Assembly (NCBI GenBank): GCA_038128225.1
Contig: JAYPJF010000001.1
Location: 94,458 to 158,457 of the forward strand
Length of the DNA: 64,000 bases
Direction: 5' to 3'
DNA from: a bacterium
Lineage (GTDB): Bacteria > Patescibacteriota > Minisyncoccia > Phycocordibacterales > UBA2100
The position numbers were made by a program, and so were the translations under genes. The first letter of the stretch is position 1; each line of letters starts with the position of its first letter. The notes below the pieces were generated by a model. It ran no database searches. It had not been told where the DNA came from and saw nothing but the letters and a program-made list of their open reading frames with translations. Below, in pieces: positions 3,121 through 45,717 of the stretch.

Positions 3121-4554
3121 CTAGTTGGAAATAACTACCGAGACACTTTCAAGATTCGAGTTCGAGGGAGAACCTGTTCGCAGCGAAACAATGTATGTGC
3201 CCGCTGATGCGTATGTGTGCGTGAACTCTTTAGTCGTAACCGCGGCAGAGCACGAACCTGCACTCTGAGAAACAGCGGAGGTCCCATCACCCCACTCCAA
3301 TTCATAGTAGCTGCATGGTGACGCAATCTGGAACGTGCTTCGCATTTTGCGCGGATTATTATCAACACCAGGAACGAGTGTGAATTGCGTGTCTACCGTT
3401 GGCTGCTGTGCTGTGCCCGAGGTAGTAATTACCTGCGTCTGCGCAAGCTGCGCCTGTCCGGCACTTACCTGCTGTGCCGTCCCGCGGTATAAAGATGCAC
3501 TGAAAGATCCTCCATACTCATACCGGTGCGTTACTGAATACGTGCGCGGGGCACAAGAACCCGAATTGTAATAAAGTTCGGCATGCGTTCCGTCACCAAA
3601 AGCTAGTGTGTACGTCCCCCCCGCGCACTGTGAATCTTGGTTGATGGTCGCGCTGAATTGCGCAGTGAACGGTGCGTTGCCGCTCGCGTCTGCAACCGAG
3701 AGCGTACCGTACGCTGTTGGCGAAGGTAGTATTGGCGTTGGTGTAGGCTGAGTTGTTTGTCCGGTACCGACATTTATTACAATCGAGGAAGTGCGTGTTC
3801 CTGTTGAAATAGTAACTGGGTAGACACCAGGTACCGGATATGTGTGCACGTATGATTGCGTTAATTCATTACAGTACCCTGCCCCCACCGGTAAAATCAC
3901 GAGCGGCGATCCGTCCCCGTAATTTATAGTGTACGTAGCAGCTTGGCATGATTTAACAGTATTCGCGGTTGCGGTAATAGTTACCGTAAGAGGAGCAGGC
4001 CCAGAAACAGGCGAGGCTTTAAGGTATGCGCCTACTTGTCCTCCTGTTTGGTACCCGTATTGGTAAGCCGATTGGACAACACATCCTTCTGCAAGCGCCT
4101 TCTGTGTACGCGGACCAACGCATCCATACCATTCCCCTACCCATCCTGGCGGCGCATTAATACCGCAGGCTTTTTGAAAACTAGTAACCGCCGCTATAGT
4201 TAGAGGGCCGAACGTTCCAGAAACAACCCCCTCCGGGTAAATGTTCTTATCCTGCGCGAGAAACCGTTGCAGAGCCGCAACTTTCTCACCAGTTGCGCCT
4301 TCGTGTATGTGCTCTCCAAGAAACAGTCCTCCACTAAAAATAGAGCTGCCAGAAACACTGCCTGAAGGTAGCGTCGTTGGCGCAACAGGAGTGGTGACTG
4401 ACCCTGGAATGCTTGTTAGCTCTGCTTGAAGTGCTTGAATGCGCGCAAGAAGTGCCGAAACTTGTTGTTGTAGTTCAGTGAGGCTTTGTGCAGAGCTGAG
4501 CCATGGTACGGAAACAAGCACCGCAAGAGACAGAACGGCAAGGTATCTTTTCAT
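3121..4554 (-). CDS. Secreted protein: signal peptide, coiled coil, peptidoglycan-binding-like domain, and three PKD-like repeats
   Basis: The start is refined to the internal Met (MKRYLAVLSLAVLVSVPWLSSAQS, a signal peptide). The 4662 start would overlap the tRNA. Coiled coil LTELQQQVSALLARIQALQAEL. PGBD-like motif GEKVAALQRFLAQDKNIYPEGVVSGTFGPLTIAAVTSFQ. Three repeats carry (Y/F/W)GDG(S/T)...HTY, a PKD-like signature. Confidence 0.7.
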   Translation of the reverse strand: MKRYLAVLSLAVLVSVPWLSSAQSLTELQQQVSALLARIQALQAELTSIPGSVTTPVAPTTLPSGSVSGSSIFSGGLFLGEHIHEGATGEKVAALQRFLAQDKNIYPEGVVSGTFGPLTIAAVTSFQKACGINAPPGWVGEWYGCVGPRTQKALAEGCVVQSAYQYGYQTGGQVGAYLKASPVSGPAPLTVTITATANTVKSCQAATYTINYGDGSPLVILPVGAGYCNELTQSYVHTYPVPGVYPVTISTGTRTSSIVINVGTGQTTQPTPTPILPSPTAYGTLSVADASGNAPFTAQFSATINQDSQCAGGTYTLAFGDGTHAELYYNSGSCAPRTYSVTHRYEYGGSFSASLYRGTAQQVSAGQAQLAQTQVITTSGTAQQPTVDTQFTLVPGVDNNPRKMRSTFQIASPCSYYELEWGDGTSAVSQSAGSCSAAVTTKEFTHTYASAGTYIVSLRTGSPSNSNLESVSVVISN

Positions 4555-4603
4555 ACACGCATTGTCGCATGCTCTCTGCGTGCGACAAGATGAAATCCAC
4601 TTG

Positions 4604-4676
4604 TCCGCCCCCCTGGACTCGAACCAGGAACCGCAGAGGTATAAGCTCTGTGCTCTAACCATTAAGCTAGGGGCGG
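4604..4676 (-). tRNA. tRNA-Ile, anticodon UAU (decodes AUA)
   Basis: Cloverleaf read by hand on the minus strand. Acceptor CCGCCCC/GGGGCGG (7 bp), U8, D-stem GCTT/GAGC with a GG D-loop. Anticodon stem CAGAG/CTCTG with loop CTTATAC. Variable loop of 5 nt. T-arm CCTGG-TTCGAGT-CCAGG. Discriminator A. CCA is not encoded. Confidence 0.8.
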
Positions 4677-10823: not shown

Positions 10824-11211
10824 GGGGATGATTGGCTTCGACAAAGAGATACGGATCATACATATGCATGGCATAGCTGTGGTATCTATTCAAACTGCCA
10901 CAAACCAATAAGTGCAAACAAAACTGCACGTGGAATCTTGAGCCCAATTCAGGCAAAAGATCTCCAGTTCGCTTACGCATTAGCCTAAGCGACCGCTCGC
11001 CTATCGACATCCGATACATAGTTGCGAACGTCATACTTTCGGGTTCGACAACGCTTCAGTCTGGAAGCGACGTCTAAAGAAACATGACTCGAGTTTGTGC
11101 GATCTTGTGCATTCACAACGCGCAACCTCTAAACCTCTCTGAATGTACTACGCCTTGTAGATAGATGTGTGTTCCCTCTTTTGGACGGGGGTTCAATTCC
11201 CCCCATCTCCA
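10824..11211 (+). ncRNA. ssrA: tmRNA (ssrA), one-piece
   Basis: 5' end GGGGAUGAUUGGCUUCGAC. 3' tRNA-like end GGACGGGGGUUCAAUUCCCCCCAUCUCCA. Acceptor stem 7 bp with G3:U70. Internal tag frame ends ...AKDLQFAYALA then TAA (10986-10988). A terminator hairpin lies at 11228..11256. Located directly after smpB. Confidence 0.8.
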
Positions 11212-11227
11212 CATCAATAGACACGCT

Positions 11228-38721: not shown

Positions 38722-39096
38722 TCACTGCCGTGAGAGCGCCCCGCCTTGTTCCATTTTGCGATATATGAAATACCCGAGCGCGAGAACTATTAGCACCAAA
38801 ACACCCAGTGCAATAGAGTGCCCCCCGCGAGATTGTTCTTGAGGCACCTCCGATTCAACAAACCCATCATTACTCTCAAACTCGGGCGTAGCAACCGATT
38901 CAGTAATACGTTCAGGCGTAATACCTGCCTCAACTGATTTTTTTGTAAGAGAAGCGACGAGTGTGTCAAAATCTCCCTGCGACAACCCCTCTGTGGTCGC
39001 CTGTTCTTGAAGGGCAGCGCGAATCTCAGCAGCTACACTGGCTTCTTGCGCGTAAACCGGCACCGCAATCACTAAAAACAAAAACGCAATGATCAT
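38722..39096 (-). CDS. Hypothetical small secreted/membrane-anchored protein inserted between rpsJ and rplC
   Basis: N-terminal signal/transmembrane segment MIIAFLFLVIAVPVYA, an acidic middle region, and a C-terminal transmembrane segment LGVLVLIVLALGYFIY. Confidence 0.5.
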   Translation of the reverse strand: MIIAFLFLVIAVPVYAQEASVAAEIRAALQEQATTEGLSQGDFDTLVASLTKKSVEAGITPERITESVATPEFESNDGFVESEVPQEQSRGGHSIALGVLVLIVLALGYFIYRKMEQGGALSRQ

Positions 39097-39190
39097 GCGG
39101 GAAGTATACCGCACGCGCGATCCATAACATCCCCTTATCAACAAAACCCGCTTGCGGGCGGGTTTTGTTGCGTTTCCTCAAGGAAACACT

Positions 39191-39577: not shown

Positions 39578-40777
39578 TTAGGCAACAACTTTAGTTACTA
39601 CACCTGCGCCAACGGTCTTGCCACCCTCGCGAATAGCAAAGCGCTGCTGCTCTTCAAGAGCAATCGGGCCGACGAGTTTTACCTTGAAGGTAACCGTATC
39701 GCCTGGCATAACCATCTCGACACCCTCTTTAAGCGTTACCTCACCGGTAACATCGGTAGTACGCATGTAGAATTGCGGTTTATACCCTGAGAAGAATGGC
39801 GTATGGCGACCGCCTTCCTCCTTCGAAAGAATGTAGACTTCCGACTCAAATTCTGTGTGAGGAGTAATTGAGCCAGGAGCACACAAAACTTGTCCGCGAT
39901 GCACATCTTCCTTTTTTGTGCCGCGCAAAAGAATTCCTGCGTTGTCTCCAGCTTCGCCATGATCAAGTGATTTGTTGAACATTTCGATGCCAGTTACCGT
40001 TGTTTTTGCAGTGTCCTTGATGCCAACAATCTCGACATCAGCACCTACCTTGAGAACGCCGCGTTCGATACGACCAGTAACCACGGTTCCGCGACCCTCG
40101 ATCGAGAAGATGTCCTCAATCGGCATGAGAAACGGCTTTTCTTTGTCACGCTGCGGCATTGGAATGTACTCGTCGAGCGCTTTTACAAGTTCAAGTACTT
40201 TTTGTGCCCATGGATCGTCAACCGATGAAGCTTCAAGTGCCTTAAGACCCGAACCGCGAATTACCGGTGCGTTAGCGCCGTCAAATTCGTACTTGGTCAA
40301 AAGTTCACGCACCTCTTCTTCAACGAGATCGATAAGGTCATTGTCCTCAACCATGTCGCACTTATTGAGCCAAACAATGATCTTAGGCACACCCACTTGG
40401 CGAGCCAAGAGAATGTGTTCGCGAGTCTGTGGCATAACACCATCGGTTGCTGCAACCACCAAAACTGCGCCATCCATCTGTGCGGCACCCGTGATCATGT
40501 TTTTGATGTAATCAGCGTGCCCTGGAGCATCGATGTGAGCGTAGTGCCGATTCGGCGTCCAGTACTCAGAGTGGTGAATCGAAATGGTAATGCCGCGAGC
40601 CTTTTCCTCGGGCGCGGAGTCGATTTTATCGACTGCCTCAACGCGCGCACCATATCCTTGGTCCTTGGCCATATCCAAAACCCTAAGGATTGCAGCGGTC
40701 GAGGTTGTCTTGCCGTGGTCAACGTGGCCAATGGTGCCCACGTTTACGTGCGGCTTCGAACGATCGAAATCTGTCAT
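39578..40777 (-). CDS. tuf: Elongation factor Tu
   Basis: GHVDHGKTT; full-length EF-Tu of 399 aa. Confidence 0.97.
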
Positions 40778-41080: not shown

Positions 41081-42253
41081 CTATTCCCCACCATGCTCCA
41101 TCTCTAGCGTATACAAGCCAGCACGATCAGGCACAACTCCATGAACAACCATATCGTTTGCAATATACGTATGATCCCCGCTAACGTATAAGTTATAGAG
41201 TTTCTGAGCTTCTTGCGTGTTAGGGATTACTTCAAGAGTTTCCACTACAAGTTCGCCATCTGCAAGAAGGATAACGTCTCCAACATCCAGCTGTCCAACA
41301 CGTCCTGCAAGCTGATCATATGCTTCAACTTCAGCCATTGACGGGTTTGCTGCTTTCCACCCTTCAGCGGTCATCACAGGGTGGTTGTCGGTCATAAACG
41401 GCTCACCTCCATTTATACGAATCAGGTGCTGTGGTTTGCTTTCCCACAGCATTGTGTGGTCGAGTGCAAGCACGACATTACTACCACCATGGGGAGCGCG
41501 CACATGGTCACCAACACGAATTTCGTAAATCGGTTTTTGCGAACCGTCTTCCATTGTCACCAAGGTTTCTTTAGTGAAACAAGAACAACGCCCGCCACTT
41601 GGGCATCCTGAAGAAGTGAGTGTGCCATTAACGCATCTCGTTACGTTCACACCGTTAACACTTCCAGTACAACCGCTTGTACAAATACTCACAGCCGATA
41701 CAGCACCATTGGGTACATCCCCACACGTAGTGGTACTGCAGACAATACCGTCTCCGGCACTATTTGCCTTACAATACCTACTTGCCGTGAGCGTACTGAC
41801 TTGTGGGTCTGTTTCCGTGTATGAAAGCAGTGGCTGGTCGGAGGTACACGTTACCTGTGTCCCGTTAGTGGTACACCACTTCCCACTTGTAAGCGTACCT
41901 ACCTGAGGGTCTGATTCACTTACTGAGGTGAAGTTGGTCCACCCCCCACCGCTGTTTTTGTATTCAATGACCCCCGCATTATCCCTGATACCGTATCCGG
42001 CCGATCCTGCAGTCGTACCAAAATTTAAGTATCGAGAGGCACCGGAGAGAATCGCGTTTCCGTATACCGCGAGCGAGTTTACACCAAGACCCGCGTTCTT
42101 GATCTGATCAGTTGTCCCAACATTAACGGGAGCCGACACGTTTCCATTTGGAGGTGTCTGCGTAGGGCCCGTCCAGGCATACACAACACCAAGCGTCGCA
42201 AAAATTACAGCTCCTGTTATGAACGACGCGATGTGTGAAAGGGGTTTGGGCAT
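41081..42253 (-). CDS. Secreted protein with N-terminal Cys-containing repeats and a C-terminal Hint (hedgehog/intein-like, BIL-type) domain
   Basis: N-terminal hydrophobic segment. Repeats ESDPQVGTLTSGKWCTT and ETDPQVSTLTASRYCKA. The Hint domain starts CFTKETLVTMEDGSQKPIYEIRVGDHV and ends YNLYVSGDHTYIANDMVVHG, matching the intein N- and C-terminal splicing blocks. Confidence 0.65.
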   Translation of the reverse strand: MPKPLSHIASFITGAVIFATLGVVYAWTGPTQTPPNGNVSAPVNVGTTDQIKNAGLGVNSLAVYGNAILSGASRYLNFGTTAGSAGYGIRDNAGVIEYKNSGGGWTNFTSVSESDPQVGTLTSGKWCTTNGTQVTCTSDQPLLSYTETDPQVSTLTASRYCKANSAGDGIVCSTTTCGDVPNGAVSAVSICTSGCTGSVNGVNVTRCVNGTLTSSGCPSGGRCSCFTKETLVTMEDGSQKPIYEIRVGDHVRAPHGGSNVVLALDHTMLWESKPQHLIRINGGEPFMTDNHPVMTAEGWKAANPSMAEVEAYDQLAGRVGQLDVGDVILLADGELVVETLEVIPNTQEAQKLYNLYVSGDHTYIANDMVVHGVVPDRAGLYTLEMEHGGE

Positions 42254-42255
42254 AC

Positions 42256-43140
42256 TTATAGTTCACGCCAAAATGGCACAGCTCTAATAGTAACACTCTC
42301 TTCCAGAGTAGAATCGTCTAGACCTGTGCATGAAAGTGTGTATGTAACCGTGGCAGTAACCGGCGAGGATGTCTGGGAACCCGAAAGTCCACTCCACGCA
42401 TCACCATTCCCCGAAACGGTACACGAGACCGCGTCATCAGTACTCCAGGTGATTGTTGCCGTAGTACCTCGTACCAATAAAGACGGTGTTGCAGTGATCG
42501 TGCCGCCTGGGTCTGGTGCCGGTACACACGCACCGCTTTGACACTGGTAGCTACACACCTGCGGCGTGCCAGCAATCGTATCGATACCACATGACAAATC
42601 TTTATAGTGAAGCGTATCGTCAGTACAGTAGTACCCGTACGTCTGCTCGCAAGGATAATTTGCAGAAAAATCAATCCACCCCAGGTTTGTATCCCCCCAC
42701 GCCCAATCTAAAATCGCATTGCCAACCGCACTGAGACCGTAGGAAACCCCGTCAAGACTAACCCATCCATCCCACGCTCCATTTTGCGGATCTGAGGACG
42801 AAAGAACTTTCAACCACCCAGTCACTGAGCTCCCAGAAACTTGCGGAGTACATGGTGCACTAGGACATCCAGTCACATCAGCTGTTTGGGCGCTGATCCA
42901 ACCAACGTTCTCACTCCACGCATACCCAGAAATGACGCCACTTCCATTCATCGAGAGTCCGTACGAGACAGTACTGCATGTACCCAGGTCGCTGCAATTG
43001 AGCGAAATCCATCCAATTGTGTCGCTCCACGCCCACCCAGTTATTGCTTGTGTGCTTTGGGAAAATGCCGCGCGAGGTGCAAGAAACGATCCTGCCAGGA
43101 TCATACAGAACGCAAATGCCACAAGGAGCGAGTGCTTCAT
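42256..43140 (-). CDS. Secreted protein with repeated G(W/Y)AWS(D/E)xxGWI motifs
   Basis: Signal peptide MKHSLLVAFAFCMILAGSFLAPRAAFS. Motifs GWAWSDTIGWISLNC, GYAWSENVGWISAQT, LDWAWGDTNLGWIDFS. Confidence 0.55.
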   Translation of the reverse strand: MKHSLLVAFAFCMILAGSFLAPRAAFSQSTQAITGWAWSDTIGWISLNCSDLGTCSTVSYGLSMNGSGVISGYAWSENVGWISAQTADVTGCPSAPCTPQVSGSSVTGWLKVLSSSDPQNGAWDGWVSLDGVSYGLSAVGNAILDWAWGDTNLGWIDFSANYPCEQTYGYYCTDDTLHYKDLSCGIDTIAGTPQVCSYQCQSGACVPAPDPGGTITATPSLLVRGTTATITWSTDDAVSCTVSGNGDAWSGLSGSQTSSPVTATVTYTLSCTGLDDSTLEESVTIRAVPFWREL

Positions 43141-43514
43141 AGATCAGTTAAACGCACAGAGCTGAGGATTTGGAGTTTTTCTTCCTCAGACATGTTTTGT
43201 GACGGGCTTCCGCTGACTTGCTCAAGAACCTCGAGTTTTTCAACCTCGGATAGTGCCGAGGGCTGTGTCGTCTCTTGTACCGCACGAAGTATTTCTTCTT
43301 TGTTCAAAACACCTCCCTCGTCGTCACCAAGCGCGTCATGCGGTTCAAAAACGGGGGCTGTGTTTACCTGCGACCCTGAAAAAAAATAAAACGCAAAAAA
43401 GAGCAGCACGCCTGCAAGCGCAAATCCGATACTAAACTCAAGTATCGGATGGAATGCGCGTTCCCCGCGCAAAAAACGTACCCACGCACTCTCTGTGGGA
43501 ACTTGCTCACTCAT
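43137..43514 (-). CDS. Hypothetical small membrane-anchored protein (125 aa)
   Basis: One transmembrane helix (ILEFSIGFALAGVLLFFAFYFF) followed by an acidic tail. ATGA overlap with the upstream gene. Confidence 0.45.
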   Translation of the reverse strand: MSEQVPTESAWVRFLRGERAFHPILEFSIGFALAGVLLFFAFYFFSGSQVNTAPVFEPHDALGDDEGGVLNKEEILRAVQETTQPSALSEVEKLEVLEQVSGSPSQNMSEEEKLQILSSVRLTDL

Positions 43515-43572: not shown

Positions 43573-45717
43573 TTACTTCCGACTTGCCATTACTTCATCA
43601 GCAACGTTTCGTGGAACAACCGCGTAGTGATCAAATTCCATAGTTGAGTTTGCACGACCTTCGGTCATAGAGCGAAGCACTGTTGTGTACCCAAACATTT
43701 CTGAGAGCGGTACGTGTGCCGTGATTACCTTGAGTCCCCCAGTACGATCATCGATTGACTGAATTGAGCCGCGTTTACCATTGAGATTGCCCGTAACATC
43801 ACCCATAAATTTTTCCGGTGTTACGACTTCGATTTTCATAATAGGCTCGAGAAGTGCTGGCTTGGCAGATCGCACTGCTTCTTGAAATGCCTGCGAAGCA
43901 GCGATTTTGAAGGCGATTTCTGATGAGTCGACTTCGTGGTATGTACCATCAAACAATTCGACTGAAATATCCACGACTGGATACCCTGCAAGCACACCGC
44001 GCCCCATCGCTTCGCGTACACCTTTCTGCACTGCGGGAATATATTCGTTCGGAATAACACCACCTTTAATGTTGTTGATGAATTCGAAATGATCTTCGCG
44101 CGTGACGCTATGCGGGATTTTTGCACCTTCCTCTAACGGTTCCAGCGGCTTCACGCGGATCTTTACGTGGCCATATTGGCCCTTACCACCAGTCTGCTTG
44201 ATGTATTTGTTTTCGATCTCAGCGTTGCCTTGAATGGTTTCGCGATACGCAACCTGTGGTTTGCCAAGCGTTGCCTCAACACCAAATTCTCGGCGCATAC
44301 GGTCAACAATAATATCGAGGTGTAACTCACCCATTCCCGCAACAAGCGTGTCGCCTGTTTCTTCATCCGAATACACACGGAATGTTGGATCTTCGTCACC
44401 AAGTTTGGCAAGCGCCATACCCATTTTTTCTTGGTCGTTCTTAGTTTTAGGCTCGATACGAGCTGAAAGAACTGGTTCGCGGAATTTAATTTGTTCGAGA
44501 ATAATTGGACTCTTCTCATCACAGATTGTATGACCGATTTTTGCCTCTTTTGCTCCAACGAGTGCAGCAATTTCTCCCGTGAACACCTTTTTTATTTCTT
44601 CTCGCTTGTCTGCCTGAAGGCGAACAATACGTCCAACTCGCTCCTTTGTTCCGTTCGATGCATTGTACACATAACTCCCTGCTTCAAGGGTGCCTGAATA
44701 GACGCGGAAGAACGAAAGTTGCCCCACGAACGGGTCAGCCTGGAGTTTAAAGACGAGCGCGGCAAAAGGTTCTGCGTCTGATGGGCCGCGAGTAATCTCT
44801 TCGCCAGTGTCAGGATTTACTCCCTTAGCTGCAGGAAGATCGAGAGGACAAGGAAGATAGTCAACGACGGCATCGAGCACTAACTGGACTCCTTTGTTTT
44901 TGAGCGCCGTCCCACACAAGACAGGGAATATTTTGTTCGCAATGACTGCCTTACGCAGCGTAGTCTTAAGTTCTGAAAGTGACGGCTCCTTACCTTCAAG
45001 GTATGCACTCATCAGACCCTCATCGTGTTCGACGATCGCTTCGATTAATTCCGCGCGGTACTTACCCGCGTCCGCCTTGAAAGCCTCTGGAATTGGCCCC
45101 GCAATAACCTCTTTACCTTTATCCCCCGCAAAGGTGTATGCCTGCATCGTCAAAAGATCAATAACACCTTCCATTGCATCCTCTTCTCCCATAGGAAGTT
45201 GTGTGCGAATTGCGTTTTTAGACAAGCGATCTTTGATCATTCCGTATGAGCGTTCAAAAGAAGCGCCGGTGCGATCAAGTTTATTCACAAAACAAAGCCG
45301 TGGCACATTCGCGTCTTCCGCATAGCGCCAGTTAGTTTCTGTCTGAGGCTCAACTCCCGCGACACCGTCAAATACGACAACGGCGCCGTCTAGCACACGC
45401 ATTGAACGCTGCACTTCTGAGGTGAAGTCAATGTGTCCCGGAGTATCGATGATATTGAAACGGTGCTTGTTAGAAGTGTCAGCACCCATGTATGTTGGGT
45501 TCCAGAAACACGTGATTGCAGCAGCGGTGATGGTAATGCCGCGCTCGCGCTCCTGCTCCATCCAGTCGGTCACTGTAGCACCCTCGTGCACCTCTCCGAT
45601 TTTATGGCTTTCGCCAGTGTAGAAAAGAATGCGCTCCGATGTGGTTGTTTTTCCCGCATCAATGTGGGCGATAATACCGAAGTTGCGGACTTTCTCGAGT
45701 GGGTAGTCGCGGTTCAT
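43573..45717 (-). CDS. fusA: Elongation factor G
   Basis: AHIDAGKTT; full-length EF-G of 714 aa. Confidence 0.97.
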   Translation of the reverse strand: MNRDYPLEKVRNFGIIAHIDAGKTTTSERILFYTGESHKIGEVHEGATVTDWMEQERERGITITAAAITCFWNPTYMGADTSNKHRFNIIDTPGHIDFTSEVQRSMRVLDGAVVVFDGVAGVEPQTETNWRYAEDANVPRLCFVNKLDRTGASFERSYGMIKDRLSKNAIRTQLPMGEEDAMEGVIDLLTMQAYTFAGDKGKEVIAGPIPEAFKADAGKYRAELIEAIVEHDEGLMSAYLEGKEPSLSELKTTLRKAVIANKIFPVLCGTALKNKGVQLVLDAVVDYLPCPLDLPAAKGVNPDTGEEITRGPSDAEPFAALVFKLQADPFVGQLSFFRVYSGTLEAGSYVYNASNGTKERVGRIVRLQADKREEIKKVFTGEIAALVGAKEAKIGHTICDEKSPIILEQIKFREPVLSARIEPKTKNDQEKMGMALAKLGDEDPTFRVYSDEETGDTLVAGMGELHLDIIVDRMRREFGVEATLGKPQVAYRETIQGNAEIENKYIKQTGGKGQYGHVKIRVKPLEPLEEGAKIPHSVTREDHFEFINNIKGGVIPNEYIPAVQKGVREAMGRGVLAGYPVVDISVELFDGTYHEVDSSEIAFKIAASQAFQEAVRSAKPALLEPIMKIEVVTPEKFMGDVTGNLNGKRGSIQSIDDRTGGLKVITAHVPLSEMFGYTTVLRSMTEGRANSTMEFDHYAVVPRNVADEVMASRK

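What the first reader, a model, noticed from the sequence alone, without database searches (positions are those of the whole stretch)
41081..42253. Hint (intein/hedgehog-like) domain at the C-terminus of a secreted repeat protein
Residues from about 217 to 365 start with CFTKETLVTMEDGSQKPIYEIRVGDHV, an intein block A-like sequence with the nucleophilic Cys. They end with YNLYVSGDHTYIANDMVVHG, matching blocks F and G but with terminal HG rather than HN. Only about 25 residues follow. Bacterial BIL/Hint domains mediate autoproteolysis or C-terminal ligation. Here one could release or covalently transfer the short C-terminal tail, or anchor the N-terminal repeat region.
Basis: partly seen in the sequence, partly recalled or inferred. 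Interest (0 to 1): 0.65.

Follow-up and report, generated by a model that had tools for sequence, protein, structure and literature searches.

The report
Self-cleaving Hint cap on surface fibre
A secreted, tail-fibre-like surface protein of an uncultured (probably Patescibacteria) bacterium ends in a genuine intein/hedgehog-type self-cutting domain. This is an unusual version that lacks the residue needed for splicing and carries a conserved 18-residue tail, and most likely it cuts itself off the finished fibre.

Summary
ORF 41081..42253(-) encodes a 390-aa secreted protein whose C-terminal part (residues 225-372) is a real Hint domain. Pfam Vint and Hint score above their cut-offs. A profile matches Tetrahymena BIL2 at E 3e-10. 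The AF2 model has pLDDT >95, and Foldseek gives TM 0.82 to BIL2.

Cys225, Thr288 and His291 are conserved in all relatives. The intein terminal Asn is never present (HG, YG, MS and others). The 18-aa tail is itself conserved ([V/I]PDxxGx[Y/F]...EHxGEP). It is therefore part of the domain, not a released peptide.

About 22 proteins form this rare tail-bearing subfamily, in CPR and Alphaproteobacteria. The domain is always single, always at the extreme C-terminus of secreted fibre-like proteins, and always follows a Cys-rich knob.

In a related genome the same fusA-[small]-[GWAWS-repeat]-[fibre]-tuf cassette carries a Peptidase_S74 self-cleaving chaperone domain in place of Hint.

Best reading: an N-S acyl shift at Ser224|Cys225 sheds the Hint+tail from the mature fibre. 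Whether the thioester is hydrolysed or transferred to an acceptor is unresolved.

Verdict: a new variant of a known kind, of moderate interest.

The parts
42176..42253 (-). Signal peptide, residues 1-26 (MPKPLSHIASFITGAVIFATLGVVYA). Predicted SPase I cleavage at A26|W27.
   Evidence: Hydrophobic window at residues 8-26. 69 of 70 family members have Ala at -1 and V/A/L/I at -3 before the conserved Trp. Cleavage is inferred, not shown.
41924..42175 (-). Conserved N-terminal fibre module, residues 27 to about 110 (WTGPTQTPPNGNVSAPVNVG...SRYLNFG...GYGIRDNAG..EYKNSGG).
   Evidence: Shared at 50-73% identity by more than 200 proteins, several named Kaiserbacteria or Patescibacteria, whose C-terminal domains vary. 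It is 61% identical over 121 aa to P0037 of the syntenic locus.
41726..41920 (-). Two roughly 34-aa repeats, E[ST]DPQV[GS]TLT....C.......C (residues 112-176).
   Evidence: Regex hits at residues 112 and 146. The same unit occurs in P0004, P0005, P0007, P0008, P0014, P0164 and the L008 protein.
41582..41725 (-). Cys-rich 'knob', residues 177-224, ending ...C.NGT....C...GRCS. It becomes the new C-terminus after cleavage.
   Evidence: A Cys-rich segment with C-x-[NDG]G-x-[WFLTY] precedes the Hint in every full-length subfamily member. The passenger has 10 Cys. AF2 confidence here is only 40-67.
41138..41581 (-). Hint (BIL-type) autoprocessing domain, residues 225-372. Key residues: Cys225 (41579-41581), block B Thr288 and His291 (41381-41392), terminal His371-Gly372 (41138-41143).
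   Evidence: Pfam Vint and Hint above cut-off. PDB profile hit to BIL2 at E 2.8e-10. AF2 pLDDT >95. Foldseek TM 0.82 to 6Y75. Catalytic residues are conserved in alignment A3.
41084..41137 (-). Conserved C-terminal tail, residues 373-390 (VVPDRAGLYTLEMEHGGE). Pro375, Asp376, Gly379 and His387 are at least 90% conserved in the subfamily.
   Evidence: Alignment A3. The tail is present only in domains that lack the terminal Asn, and these always end the protein. AF2 pLDDT falls from 96 to 77 to 52 along it.
42256..43140 (-). Upstream cassette gene: a 294-aa secreted protein with four GWAWSxxxGWISLN repeats. Its stop codon (42256-42258) is separated by 2 nt from the ATG of the Hint gene.
   Evidence: 46% identical ortholog at the same position in L010. 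A homologous 953-aa protein lies directly upstream of the Hint protein P0003 in L006.
43137..43514 (-). First cassette gene: a 125-aa single-pass membrane protein. Its end overlaps the start of the 294-aa gene by 4 nt.
   Evidence: ORF list. ORFs of similar size and position occur in L010 (133 aa) and L006 (102 aa). Similarity is weak to L006 only.

Best explanation
The protein is a secreted, tail-fibre-like surface protein. Its last 166 residues are a disposable, self-cleaving Hint module.

Proposed sequence of events:
1. The protein is exported by Sec, and the signal peptide is removed at A26|W27.
2. The passenger (residues 27-224) folds. It consists of a constant N-terminal docking module, two short repeats and a disulfide-rich knob.
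3. In the Hint domain, Cys225, assisted by Thr288 and His291, attacks the Ser224 carbonyl (N-to-S acyl shift). This gives a thioester.
4. There is no terminal Asn and no +1 nucleophile, so neither splicing nor Asn-driven C-terminal cleavage can follow.
5. The thioester is resolved, most likely by water. This releases a roughly 19.8-kDa mature fibre ending in the Cys-rich knob, and an 18.2-kDa Hint+tail fragment.

By Hint-fold geometry, the conserved tail starts right next to the scissile bond. It most likely tunes or gates this resolution step.

Functionally, the module plays the role that the Peptidase_S74 intramolecular-chaperone/autocleavage domain plays in sister fibres.

What is shown: the fold, the conserved catalytic residues, the absence of Asn, the architecture, and the synteny with domain swap. 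What is inferred: that cleavage occurs, that it is hydrolytic, and the role of the tail.
For: - Hint fold and family membership are established.
- Cys1 is present in 16 of 16 relatives covering that position. The N-H-P of block B is invariant, with T/S two residues before it. The -1 residue is always Ser or Thr, at 41-59% overall identity.
- The Asn position is Gly or Ser in all 19 sequences, and the residue after it is never Cys, Ser or Thr as a nucleophile.
- The module is always single and always at the extreme C-terminus of signal-peptide-bearing proteins with unrelated passengers, in CPR and Alphaproteobacteria.
- Hint+tail contains no other Cys in 18 of 19 members. Passengers mostly have even Cys counts, so Cys1 is the one free thiol.
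- The syntenic locus L010 reads M50-rpsL-rpsG-fusA-[133 aa]-[289 aa]-[fibre]-...-tuf. It has the orthologous GWAWS protein (46% identity). Its fibre shares the N-terminal 121 aa (61% identity) but ends in Peptidase_S74 (43.4 bits, cut-off 22).
- About 20 of the 120 listed N-terminal homologs carry S74.
- P0037 matches phage tail-fibre PHROGs.
- Family members P0005, P0007 and P0008 end in a Cys-rich knob with no Hint. A passenger without Hint is therefore a viable end-state.
- S74/ICA domains are self-cleaving trimerisation chaperones (PMC8326128).
- BIL domains cleave at their N-terminus like inteins (PMC7765530).
Against: - There is no experimental evidence of cleavage for any member of this subfamily.
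- Hydrolysis is the default assumption, not a result.
- The conserved tail (Pro-Asp, Gly, His) and the conserved S/T at -1 suggest something more specific than passive hydrolysis.
- The closest solved relative, BIL2, performs ligation, not hydrolysis (PMC8616854).
- Hint domains are not known to act as folding or trimerisation chaperones. The analogy with S74 covers self-removal only.
- AF2 confidence for the tail and knob is modest.
- Whether the signal peptide is cleaved or acts as an anchor was not determined.
Confidence: 0.5

Rival explanations
1. Hedgehog/BUBL-like ligation. The Cys225 thioester is not hydrolysed but attacked by a specific acceptor. Candidates are a lipid or sugar hydroxyl, a peptidoglycan stem-peptide amine, a Lys of a partner such as the co-encoded GWAWS-repeat protein, or a nucleophile on a host cell surface. 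The fibre's new C-terminus (Ser224) becomes covalently attached, while Hint+tail leaves. The conserved tail would act as an adduct-recognition region.
For: The closest solved structure, Tetrahymena BIL2, transfers the upstream Ubl domain to Lys amines without ATP (PMC8616854, section 2.4). Hedgehog Hint plus a C-terminal extension transfers to cholesterol (PMC7765530). The tail is conserved, is coupled to loss of Asn, and starts at the position that abuts the active site in Hint folds. The -1 residue and the preceding R-x motif are conserved. The cassette partner genes are conserved.
Against: The tail is only 14-30 aa, hydrophilic and acidic, unlike the 60-70-aa sterol-recognition region. No conserved partner gene accompanies the module outside CPR; the contexts differ. 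The syntenic S74 version is a purely hydrolytic self-cleaver. No acceptor can be named.
Confidence: 0.27
2. Non-cleaving Hint. The domain stays on the fibre as a structural or receptor-binding tip. The catalytic residues would be retained for other reasons, for example a latent thioester used only on contact, or metal binding.
For: The terminal Asn and the penultimate His are lost. The domain forms the distal end, which is where receptor-binding domains of fibres sit. Other family members carry binding-type C-termini such as GP38, Collar and collagen.
Against: Cys1, T/S-x-N-H-P and the S/T at -1 are strictly conserved across 41-59% identical sequences from different phyla. This is the signature of an active N-terminal junction. 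The domain has no other Cys and sits after a disulfide-rich knob, which keeps Cys1 free.
Confidence: 0.15
3. One of three alternatives: a classical intein (mobile splicing element), a pretoxin-HINT that releases a C-terminal toxin, or a Hint that releases the 18-aa tail as a peptide. The last is the first reader's option.
For: Weak sub-threshold hits to intein N- and C-terminal models and to PT-HINT. Some relatives (P0271) pass the PT-HINT cut-off.
Against: There is no terminal Asn, no +1 Cys/Ser/Thr, no C-extein and no homing endonuclease. Only 18 residues follow, and they are conserved as part of the domain. There is no toxin domain and no immunity gene; the downstream gene is tuf. The window protein scores 13.5 bits against PT-HINT, whose cut-off is 27.7.
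Confidence: 0.03

Closest known systems
A-type bacterial intein-like (BIL) domains, including Tetrahymena BUBL BIL2 (PDB 6Y75/6TMM) and C. thermocellum BIL (2LWY)
   Same: These are the nearest relatives by sequence and by predicted fold. They share the S/G-C-F start, the T-x-x-H-P block B, the GWK motif and the LYN...G(D/N)HTY.AN...V end. They occur in non-conserved secreted proteins rather than in housekeeping genes.
   Different: A-type BILs end in His-Asn (VHNK) and are often arrayed 2-7 in tandem. This subfamily never has Asn, is always single and terminal, and adds a conserved PD..G...EH.GEP tail.
B-type BIL domains / Pfam Hint_2 (PF13403)
   Same: These are described as having all intein motifs except the C-terminal one, and as cleaving at their N-terminus (PMC7765530). 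That is the same logic as proposed here.
   Different: The window protein scores only 19 bits against Hint_2 (cut-off 28.4), and only over the first 45 residues. By sequence it sits with the HN-type BILs instead. The tail motif is not described in the reviews I read (not searched exhaustively).
Hedgehog C-terminal autoprocessing (Hog) domain
   Same: [quoted passage not shown] A Cys thioester is resolved by an external nucleophile.
   Different: The fold match is much weaker (1AT0 E 5e-5, TM 0.57). The extension is 18 aa and acidic, versus a 60-70-aa sterol-recognition region. It is bacterial. No evidence for any adduct.
[quoted passage not shown]
   Same: [quoted passage not shown] It is also a self-removing C-terminal module.
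   Different: The fold and chemistry are unrelated: Ser-Lys dyad hydrolysis after trimerisation. Its chaperone role is documented for S74 (PMC8326128) and is not known for any Hint.
Hint-domain proteins of uncultured Caudovirales (e.g. A0A6J5M6E1; collagen-repeat protein A0A6J5QMR4)
   Same: These are the best BFVD structural matches (E 5e-13 to 8e-11, 26-30% identity). At least one combines a collagen-like fibre with a Hint.
   Different: They are uncharacterised. I did not check whether they lack Asn or carry the tail. The viral-contig scan with the subfamily profile found only ordinary inteins.

Membership tests
HINT superfamily | Hint fold (horseshoe beta-structure) | tested here: met
   AF2 pLDDT >95 for residues 225-372. 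Foldseek gives 45 PDB hits at E<=1e-3, all inteins, BILs, Hedgehog or Vint; the top hit is BIL2 with TM 0.82.
HINT superfamily | N-terminal nucleophile (Cys/Ser) and block B T-x-x-H | tested here: met
   Cys225, Thr288 and His291 are present. Cys is conserved in 16 of 16 relatives, His is invariant, and T/S is conserved.
HINT superfamily | Pfam model above gathering score | tested here: met
   Vint 34.1 bits against a cut-off of 27; Hint 32.8 bits against 29.7.
Intein (class 1-3) | C-terminal Asn (or Gln/Asp) that cyclises | tested here: not met
   The position is Gly372. It is Gly or Ser in all 19 subfamily members.
Intein (class 1-3) | +1 Cys/Ser/Thr on a C-extein of a host protein; insertion in a conserved host gene | tested here: not met
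   The +1 residue is Val373. Only 18 residues follow. The domain ends the protein in all members.
A-type BIL | Conserved C-terminal His-Asn | tested here: not met
   The end is HG here, and H/Y/M/L/I followed by G/S in relatives. Nearest non-tail relatives end in VHNK.
B-type BIL / Hint_2 (PF13403) | Intein N-terminal motifs present, C-terminal motif absent | tested here: met
   Blocks A and B are present and HN is absent. The definition is as described in PMC7765530.
B-type BIL / Hint_2 (PF13403) | Matches the family profile above cut-off | tested here: not met
   19.0 bits against a cut-off of 28.4, covering residues 225-269 only.
Pretoxin-HINT (PF07591) | Profile above cut-off and a toxin domain downstream of the Hint | tested here: not met
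   13.5 bits against a cut-off of 27.7. No domain follows, only the 18-aa tail.
Hedgehog Hog domain | Hint followed by a sterol/adduct recognition region, and transfer to an external nucleophile | tested here: inconclusive
   A conserved extension exists but is only 18 aa. Transfer cannot be tested in silico.
Any autoprocessing Hint | Actual cleavage at the N-terminal junction | not testable with these tools
   This needs expression and mass spectrometry.
Peptidase_S74 | S74 profile match | tested here: not met
   The window protein has no hit. Only its syntenic counterpart P0037 has one.

The most novel reading that the evidence does not exclude
The Hint module is a sortase-free, ATP-free covalent coupling device at the tip of a surface fibre. 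The Cys225 thioester is held latent by the conserved tail. It is discharged onto an amine or hydroxyl of an acceptor: the bacterium's own wall, the co-encoded GWAWS-repeat protein, or, for an episymbiotic Patescibacterium, the host cell surface. This would be a bacterial counterpart of Hedgehog cholesteroylation or BUBL ubiquitin-like conjugation, used for adhesion or fibre assembly.
Probability: 0.15. Interest if true: 0.85.

Novelty: new variant of a known kind. Interest (0 to 1): 0.45.

Why it matters
Hint domains are well known as inteins, Hedgehog processing domains, BILs and pretoxin cleavers. Their natural roles in ordinary bacterial secreted proteins are still poorly understood.

This case defines a rare, sharply delimited subfamily: no Asn, a conserved tail, always terminal, and always behind a Cys-rich knob of fibre-like proteins. 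It also gives the subfamily a concrete biological context. At the same genomic position and on the same fibre scaffold, it is interchangeable with the Peptidase_S74 self-cleaving chaperone domain. This suggests a testable idea, that Hint chemistry has been recruited as a maturation 'cap' for cell-surface fibres.

If the thioester is instead passed to an acceptor, the module would be a new covalent attachment mechanism. That would matter for how ultra-small episymbiotic bacteria build or use their surface appendages. It could also serve as a compact natural C-terminal ligation tag for protein engineering.

Tried and rejected
- Single-sequence AF2 of the full protein gave mean pLDDT 33 and was unusable.
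- A word-indexed homology search with the Hint region alone found only one extra protein. The same search with a 19-sequence profile found only 15. The exhaustive HMM search was needed.
- The GTDB species-representative scan found only 2 loci, and the window's own genome is not in that collection.
- The viral-contig scan returned ordinary inteins, for example an intein in a phage prohead protease/scaffold-like protein in L013. It found no tail-bearing Hint.
The taxon is inferred only from named relatives of the N-terminal module (Kaiserbacteria/Patescibacteria).
- The promoter and terminator scan around the cassette was no better than shuffles.
- There are no paralogs of the protein or other Hint domains elsewhere in the window.
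- Literature searches for Hint domains in Patescibacteria, or Hint combined with tail fibre or intramolecular chaperone, found nothing relevant.
- A sorting-signal reading of the tail (LPXTG, PEP-CTERM or similar) was rejected. The tail is hydrophilic, acidic and has no TM segment.
- A type IV pilin reading of the N-terminus was rejected. There is no G|F-T-L-I-E motif, and the site is AxA-type.

Full report
**1. What is there**

ORF 41081..42253(-) is intact and encodes 390 aa. The identical protein is encoded on a 376-kb NCBI contig and on an independent Logan assembly.

It lies between fusA (43573..45717) and tuf (39578..40777), inside an otherwise canonical string: M50 protease, rpsG, fusA, tuf, rpsJ, rplC. 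It is the last gene of a tightly packed three-gene cassette:
- a 125-aa single-pass membrane protein (43137..43514);
- a 294-aa secreted protein with four GWAWSxxxGWISLN repeats (42256..43140);
- the 390-aa protein.

The gene junctions overlap or are 2 nt apart.

**2. The observation**

Both quoted peptides are present. Exact positions are as follows:
- Cys225 is the first Hint residue.
- Thr288-Asp-Asn-His291 forms block B.
- ...YNLYVSGDHTYIANDMVVH371-G372 is the block F/G equivalent.
- 18 residues follow: VVPDRAGLYTLEMEHGGE.

The Hint assignment is robust:
- Pfam Vint (34.1 bits against a cut-off of 27) and Hint (32.8 against 29.7) pass their gathering cut-offs.
- A 7-sequence profile aligns end to end with Tetrahymena BIL2 (6Y75/6TMM) at E 2.8e-10. 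It also hits PI-SceI, the C. thermocellum BIL (2LWY), gp41-1, DnaB inteins and Hedgehog.
- AF2 with a 57-sequence alignment models residues 225-372 at pLDDT >95.
- Foldseek against the PDB returns only Hint-fold proteins, with BIL2 first (E 1.3e-10, TM 0.82) and Hedgehog 1AT0 at E 5e-5.

**3. The subfamily**

An exhaustive HMM search of 1.84 billion cluster representatives found 13,009 Hint relatives at E<=1e-3, and 199 at E<=1e-30.

The nearest large group is BIL-type domains that start S/G-C-F-x-A-G-T and end V-H-N-K. These are often arrayed 2-7 times back to back in proteins of up to 4,119 aa.

The window's domain belongs to a small, distinct clade. It has 17 representatives at 50% clustering, or about 22 counting further hits and an Alphaproteobacteria MAG. 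In this clade (alignment A3):
- Cys1 is present in all 16 sequences that cover the position, and the -1 residue is always Ser or Thr.
- Block B (T/S)-(D/N)-N-H-P has invariant N-H-P.
- The position of the intein terminal Asn is Gly (14) or Ser (5), never Asn. The penultimate residue varies (H/Y/M/L/I).
- A tail follows: [V/I/E]-P-D-x-x-G-x-[Y/F]-x(4-6)-E-H-x-G-E-P. Its P, D, G and H are at least 90% conserved.
- The domain is always single and ends the protein.

Every full-length member has an N-terminal signal-like segment and a Cys-rich segment (C-x-[NDG]-G-x-[WFLTY]...C) directly before the Hint. In 18 of 19 members Hint+tail contains no Cys other than Cys1. Passengers mostly have even Cys counts, 10 in the window protein. 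This fits an extracellular, disulfide-bonded passenger with a single free catalytic thiol.

The passengers are otherwise unrelated. They fall into three types:
- CPR-type AWTxP N-termini (P0001-3, P0271);
- proteobacterial 'C..P.G..G...CDGTNW' N-termini (P0004, P0006, P0272);
- long fibres with GNVGIGT..P...L.V.G repeats (P0006, P0132, L008).

Genomic contexts also differ. The unit [knob]-[Hint]-[tail] is therefore self-contained and has moved between phyla.

**4. The protein family and the key context**

The first roughly 110 residues are shared at 50-73% identity with more than 200 proteins, several named Kaiserbacteria or Patescibacteria. Their C-terminal parts vary: Peptidase_S74 in about 20 of the 120 listed, plus collagen, GP38, Collar, PF21722 or none.

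In 69 of 70 members with the WTxP motif, the residue before Trp is Ala and -3 is V/A/L/I. This is a signal-peptidase I site, which falls at A26|W27 here.

In locus L010 (GCA_964550595.1) the gene order is M50-rpsL-rpsG-fusA-[133 aa]-[289 aa]-[P0037]-[1017 aa]-[360 aa]-tuf.
- The 289-aa protein is the ortholog of the window's 294-aa GWAWS protein (46% identity, E 5e-85).
- P0037 shares the N-terminal 121 residues with the Hint protein (61% identity). It ends in Peptidase_S74 (43.4 bits against a cut-off of 22).
- P0037 matches phage tail-fibre PHROGs.

So the same cassette, at the same chromosomal position, carries either an S74 or a Hint+tail C-terminus.

In a second CPR-like locus (L006), a small TM protein and a 953-aa GWAWS-repeat protein again precede a Hint+tail fibre (P0003). 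There they lie next to type IV pilus genes.

Family members P0005, P0007 and P0008 end in a Cys-rich knob with no processing domain at all.

**5. Mechanism**

The residues needed for the first step of Hint chemistry are conserved. That step is the N-to-S acyl shift at Ser224|Cys225, aided by block B Thr and His.

The residues needed for the later steps of splicing, the terminal Asn and a +1 nucleophile, are absent throughout the clade. The only canonical outcome is therefore cleavage at the N-terminal junction.

The S74 domain that occupies the equivalent position in sister fibres is a self-removing C-terminal module (PMC8326128). Knob-terminated relatives without any such module also exist. 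The most economical reading is that Hint+tail is shed from the mature fibre. This would leave a roughly 19.8-kDa fibre ending in the knob, and an 18.2-kDa by-product.

I take hydrolysis as the default (confidence about 0.5). This step is inferred, not shown.

The main rival (about 0.27) is that the thioester is passed to a specific acceptor. Three points favour it:
- The closest solved structure, BIL2, ligates its upstream Ubl domain to Lys amines in a Zn-activated, ATP-independent reaction (PMC8616854).
- Hedgehog uses a C-terminal extension to bring in cholesterol (PMC7765530).
- The conserved tail begins at the point that abuts the scissile bond in Hint folds. This last point is an inference from established intein geometry.

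Against it, the tail is short and acidic, no acceptor or partner is conserved outside CPR, and S74 is purely hydrolytic.

A non-cleaving structural tip (about 0.15) is disfavoured by the strict conservation of the catalytic set. A classical intein, a pretoxin-HINT or release of the tail peptide (about 0.03) all fail on defining features.

**6. Comparison and novelty**

By function the domain fits the published description of B-type BILs: N-terminal motifs present, C-terminal motif absent, N-terminal cleavage (PMC7765530).

By sequence it fails the Hint_2 model (19 bits against a cut-off of 28.4) and clusters with HN-type BILs.

It is not an intein, not a PT-HINT and not a Hog domain by their defining features. 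See the membership table.

Phage proteins annotated only as 'Hint domain containing', including a collagen-repeat protein, are the best viral structural matches. Hint-on-fibre is therefore not unique, but it is uncharacterised.

I found no paper linking Hint domains to Patescibacteria surface proteins, or to S74-type fibre maturation.

I rate it a new variant of a known kind. The chemistry is expected. What is new is the Asn-less, tail-bearing terminal subfamily and its interchangeability with S74 on a conserved fibre scaffold.

**7. Limits**

- No cleavage has been shown for any member.
- AF2 confidence for the knob (40-67) and the distal tail (52-77) is modest.
- Signal-peptide cleavage and fibre oligomerisation are inferred.

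Noticed in passing
window 42256..43140 (-): A 294-aa secreted protein with four GWAWSxxxGWISLN-type repeats, a Cys-rich segment and an Ig-like C-terminal part ending PFWREL. It has no Pfam family. Orthologs or homologs sit directly upstream of the AWTxP fibre gene in L010 (46% identity) and L006 (953 aa). This suggests a functional pair of unknown role.
   Followed up: partly
window 43137..43514 (-): A 125-aa single-pass membrane protein opens the cassette, and its end overlaps the start of the next gene by 4 nt. ORFs of similar size and position occur in L010 (133 aa, no detectable similarity) and L006 (102 aa, weak similarity, E 2e-4).
   Followed up: partly
window 41924..42175 (-) and proteins P0005-P0120: The N-terminal module (WTGPTxxPPNGNVxAPxNxG...SRYLNFG...GYGIRDNAG..EFK) defines a family of more than 200 secreted CPR proteins. 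Their C-termini are swappable: Peptidase_S74, collagen, GP38, Collar, Gly-rich, Hint. None is characterised. They look like cellular tail-fibre analogues.
   Followed up: partly
window 38722..39144 (-): A 140-aa ORF with a signal-like N-terminus and a C-terminal TM helix is wedged between rpsJ and rplC. That is an unusual place for a non-ribosomal gene.
   Followed up: no
window 4603..4676 (-) and 10824..11212 (+): tRNA-Ile with anticodon UAU, which overlaps the end of ORF 3121..4662. Also a tmRNA with tag ANKTARGILSPIQAKDLQFAYALA.
   Followed up: no
proteins P0122-P0127, P0163, P0195 (reference library): Giant proteins carry 2-7 BIL domains placed back to back (…VHNK-G(n)-S-CF…), for example P0122 at 4,119 aa with five. 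They could be poly-autoprocessing arrays whose products and biology are unknown.
   Followed up: no
L004/L005 4075..7557: In the 'Proteobacteria bacterium' MAG (GCA_016125375.1), two paralogous tail-bearing Hint proteins (566/553 aa and 518 aa) sit in tandem next to a hybrid histidine kinase and a polysaccharide-synthesis cluster.
   Followed up: no
L008 66..2195: An Alphaproteobacteria MAG encodes a 709-aa fibre-like protein with GNVGIGT..P...L.V.G repeats, a sub-threshold Shufflon_N (PilV-like) match (26.0 bits against a cut-off of 27.5), one ETDPQVG repeat, a knob and Hint+tail. In this member Cys1 is followed by Leu, and the tail reads KEDADG instead of VPDxxG.
   Followed up: partly
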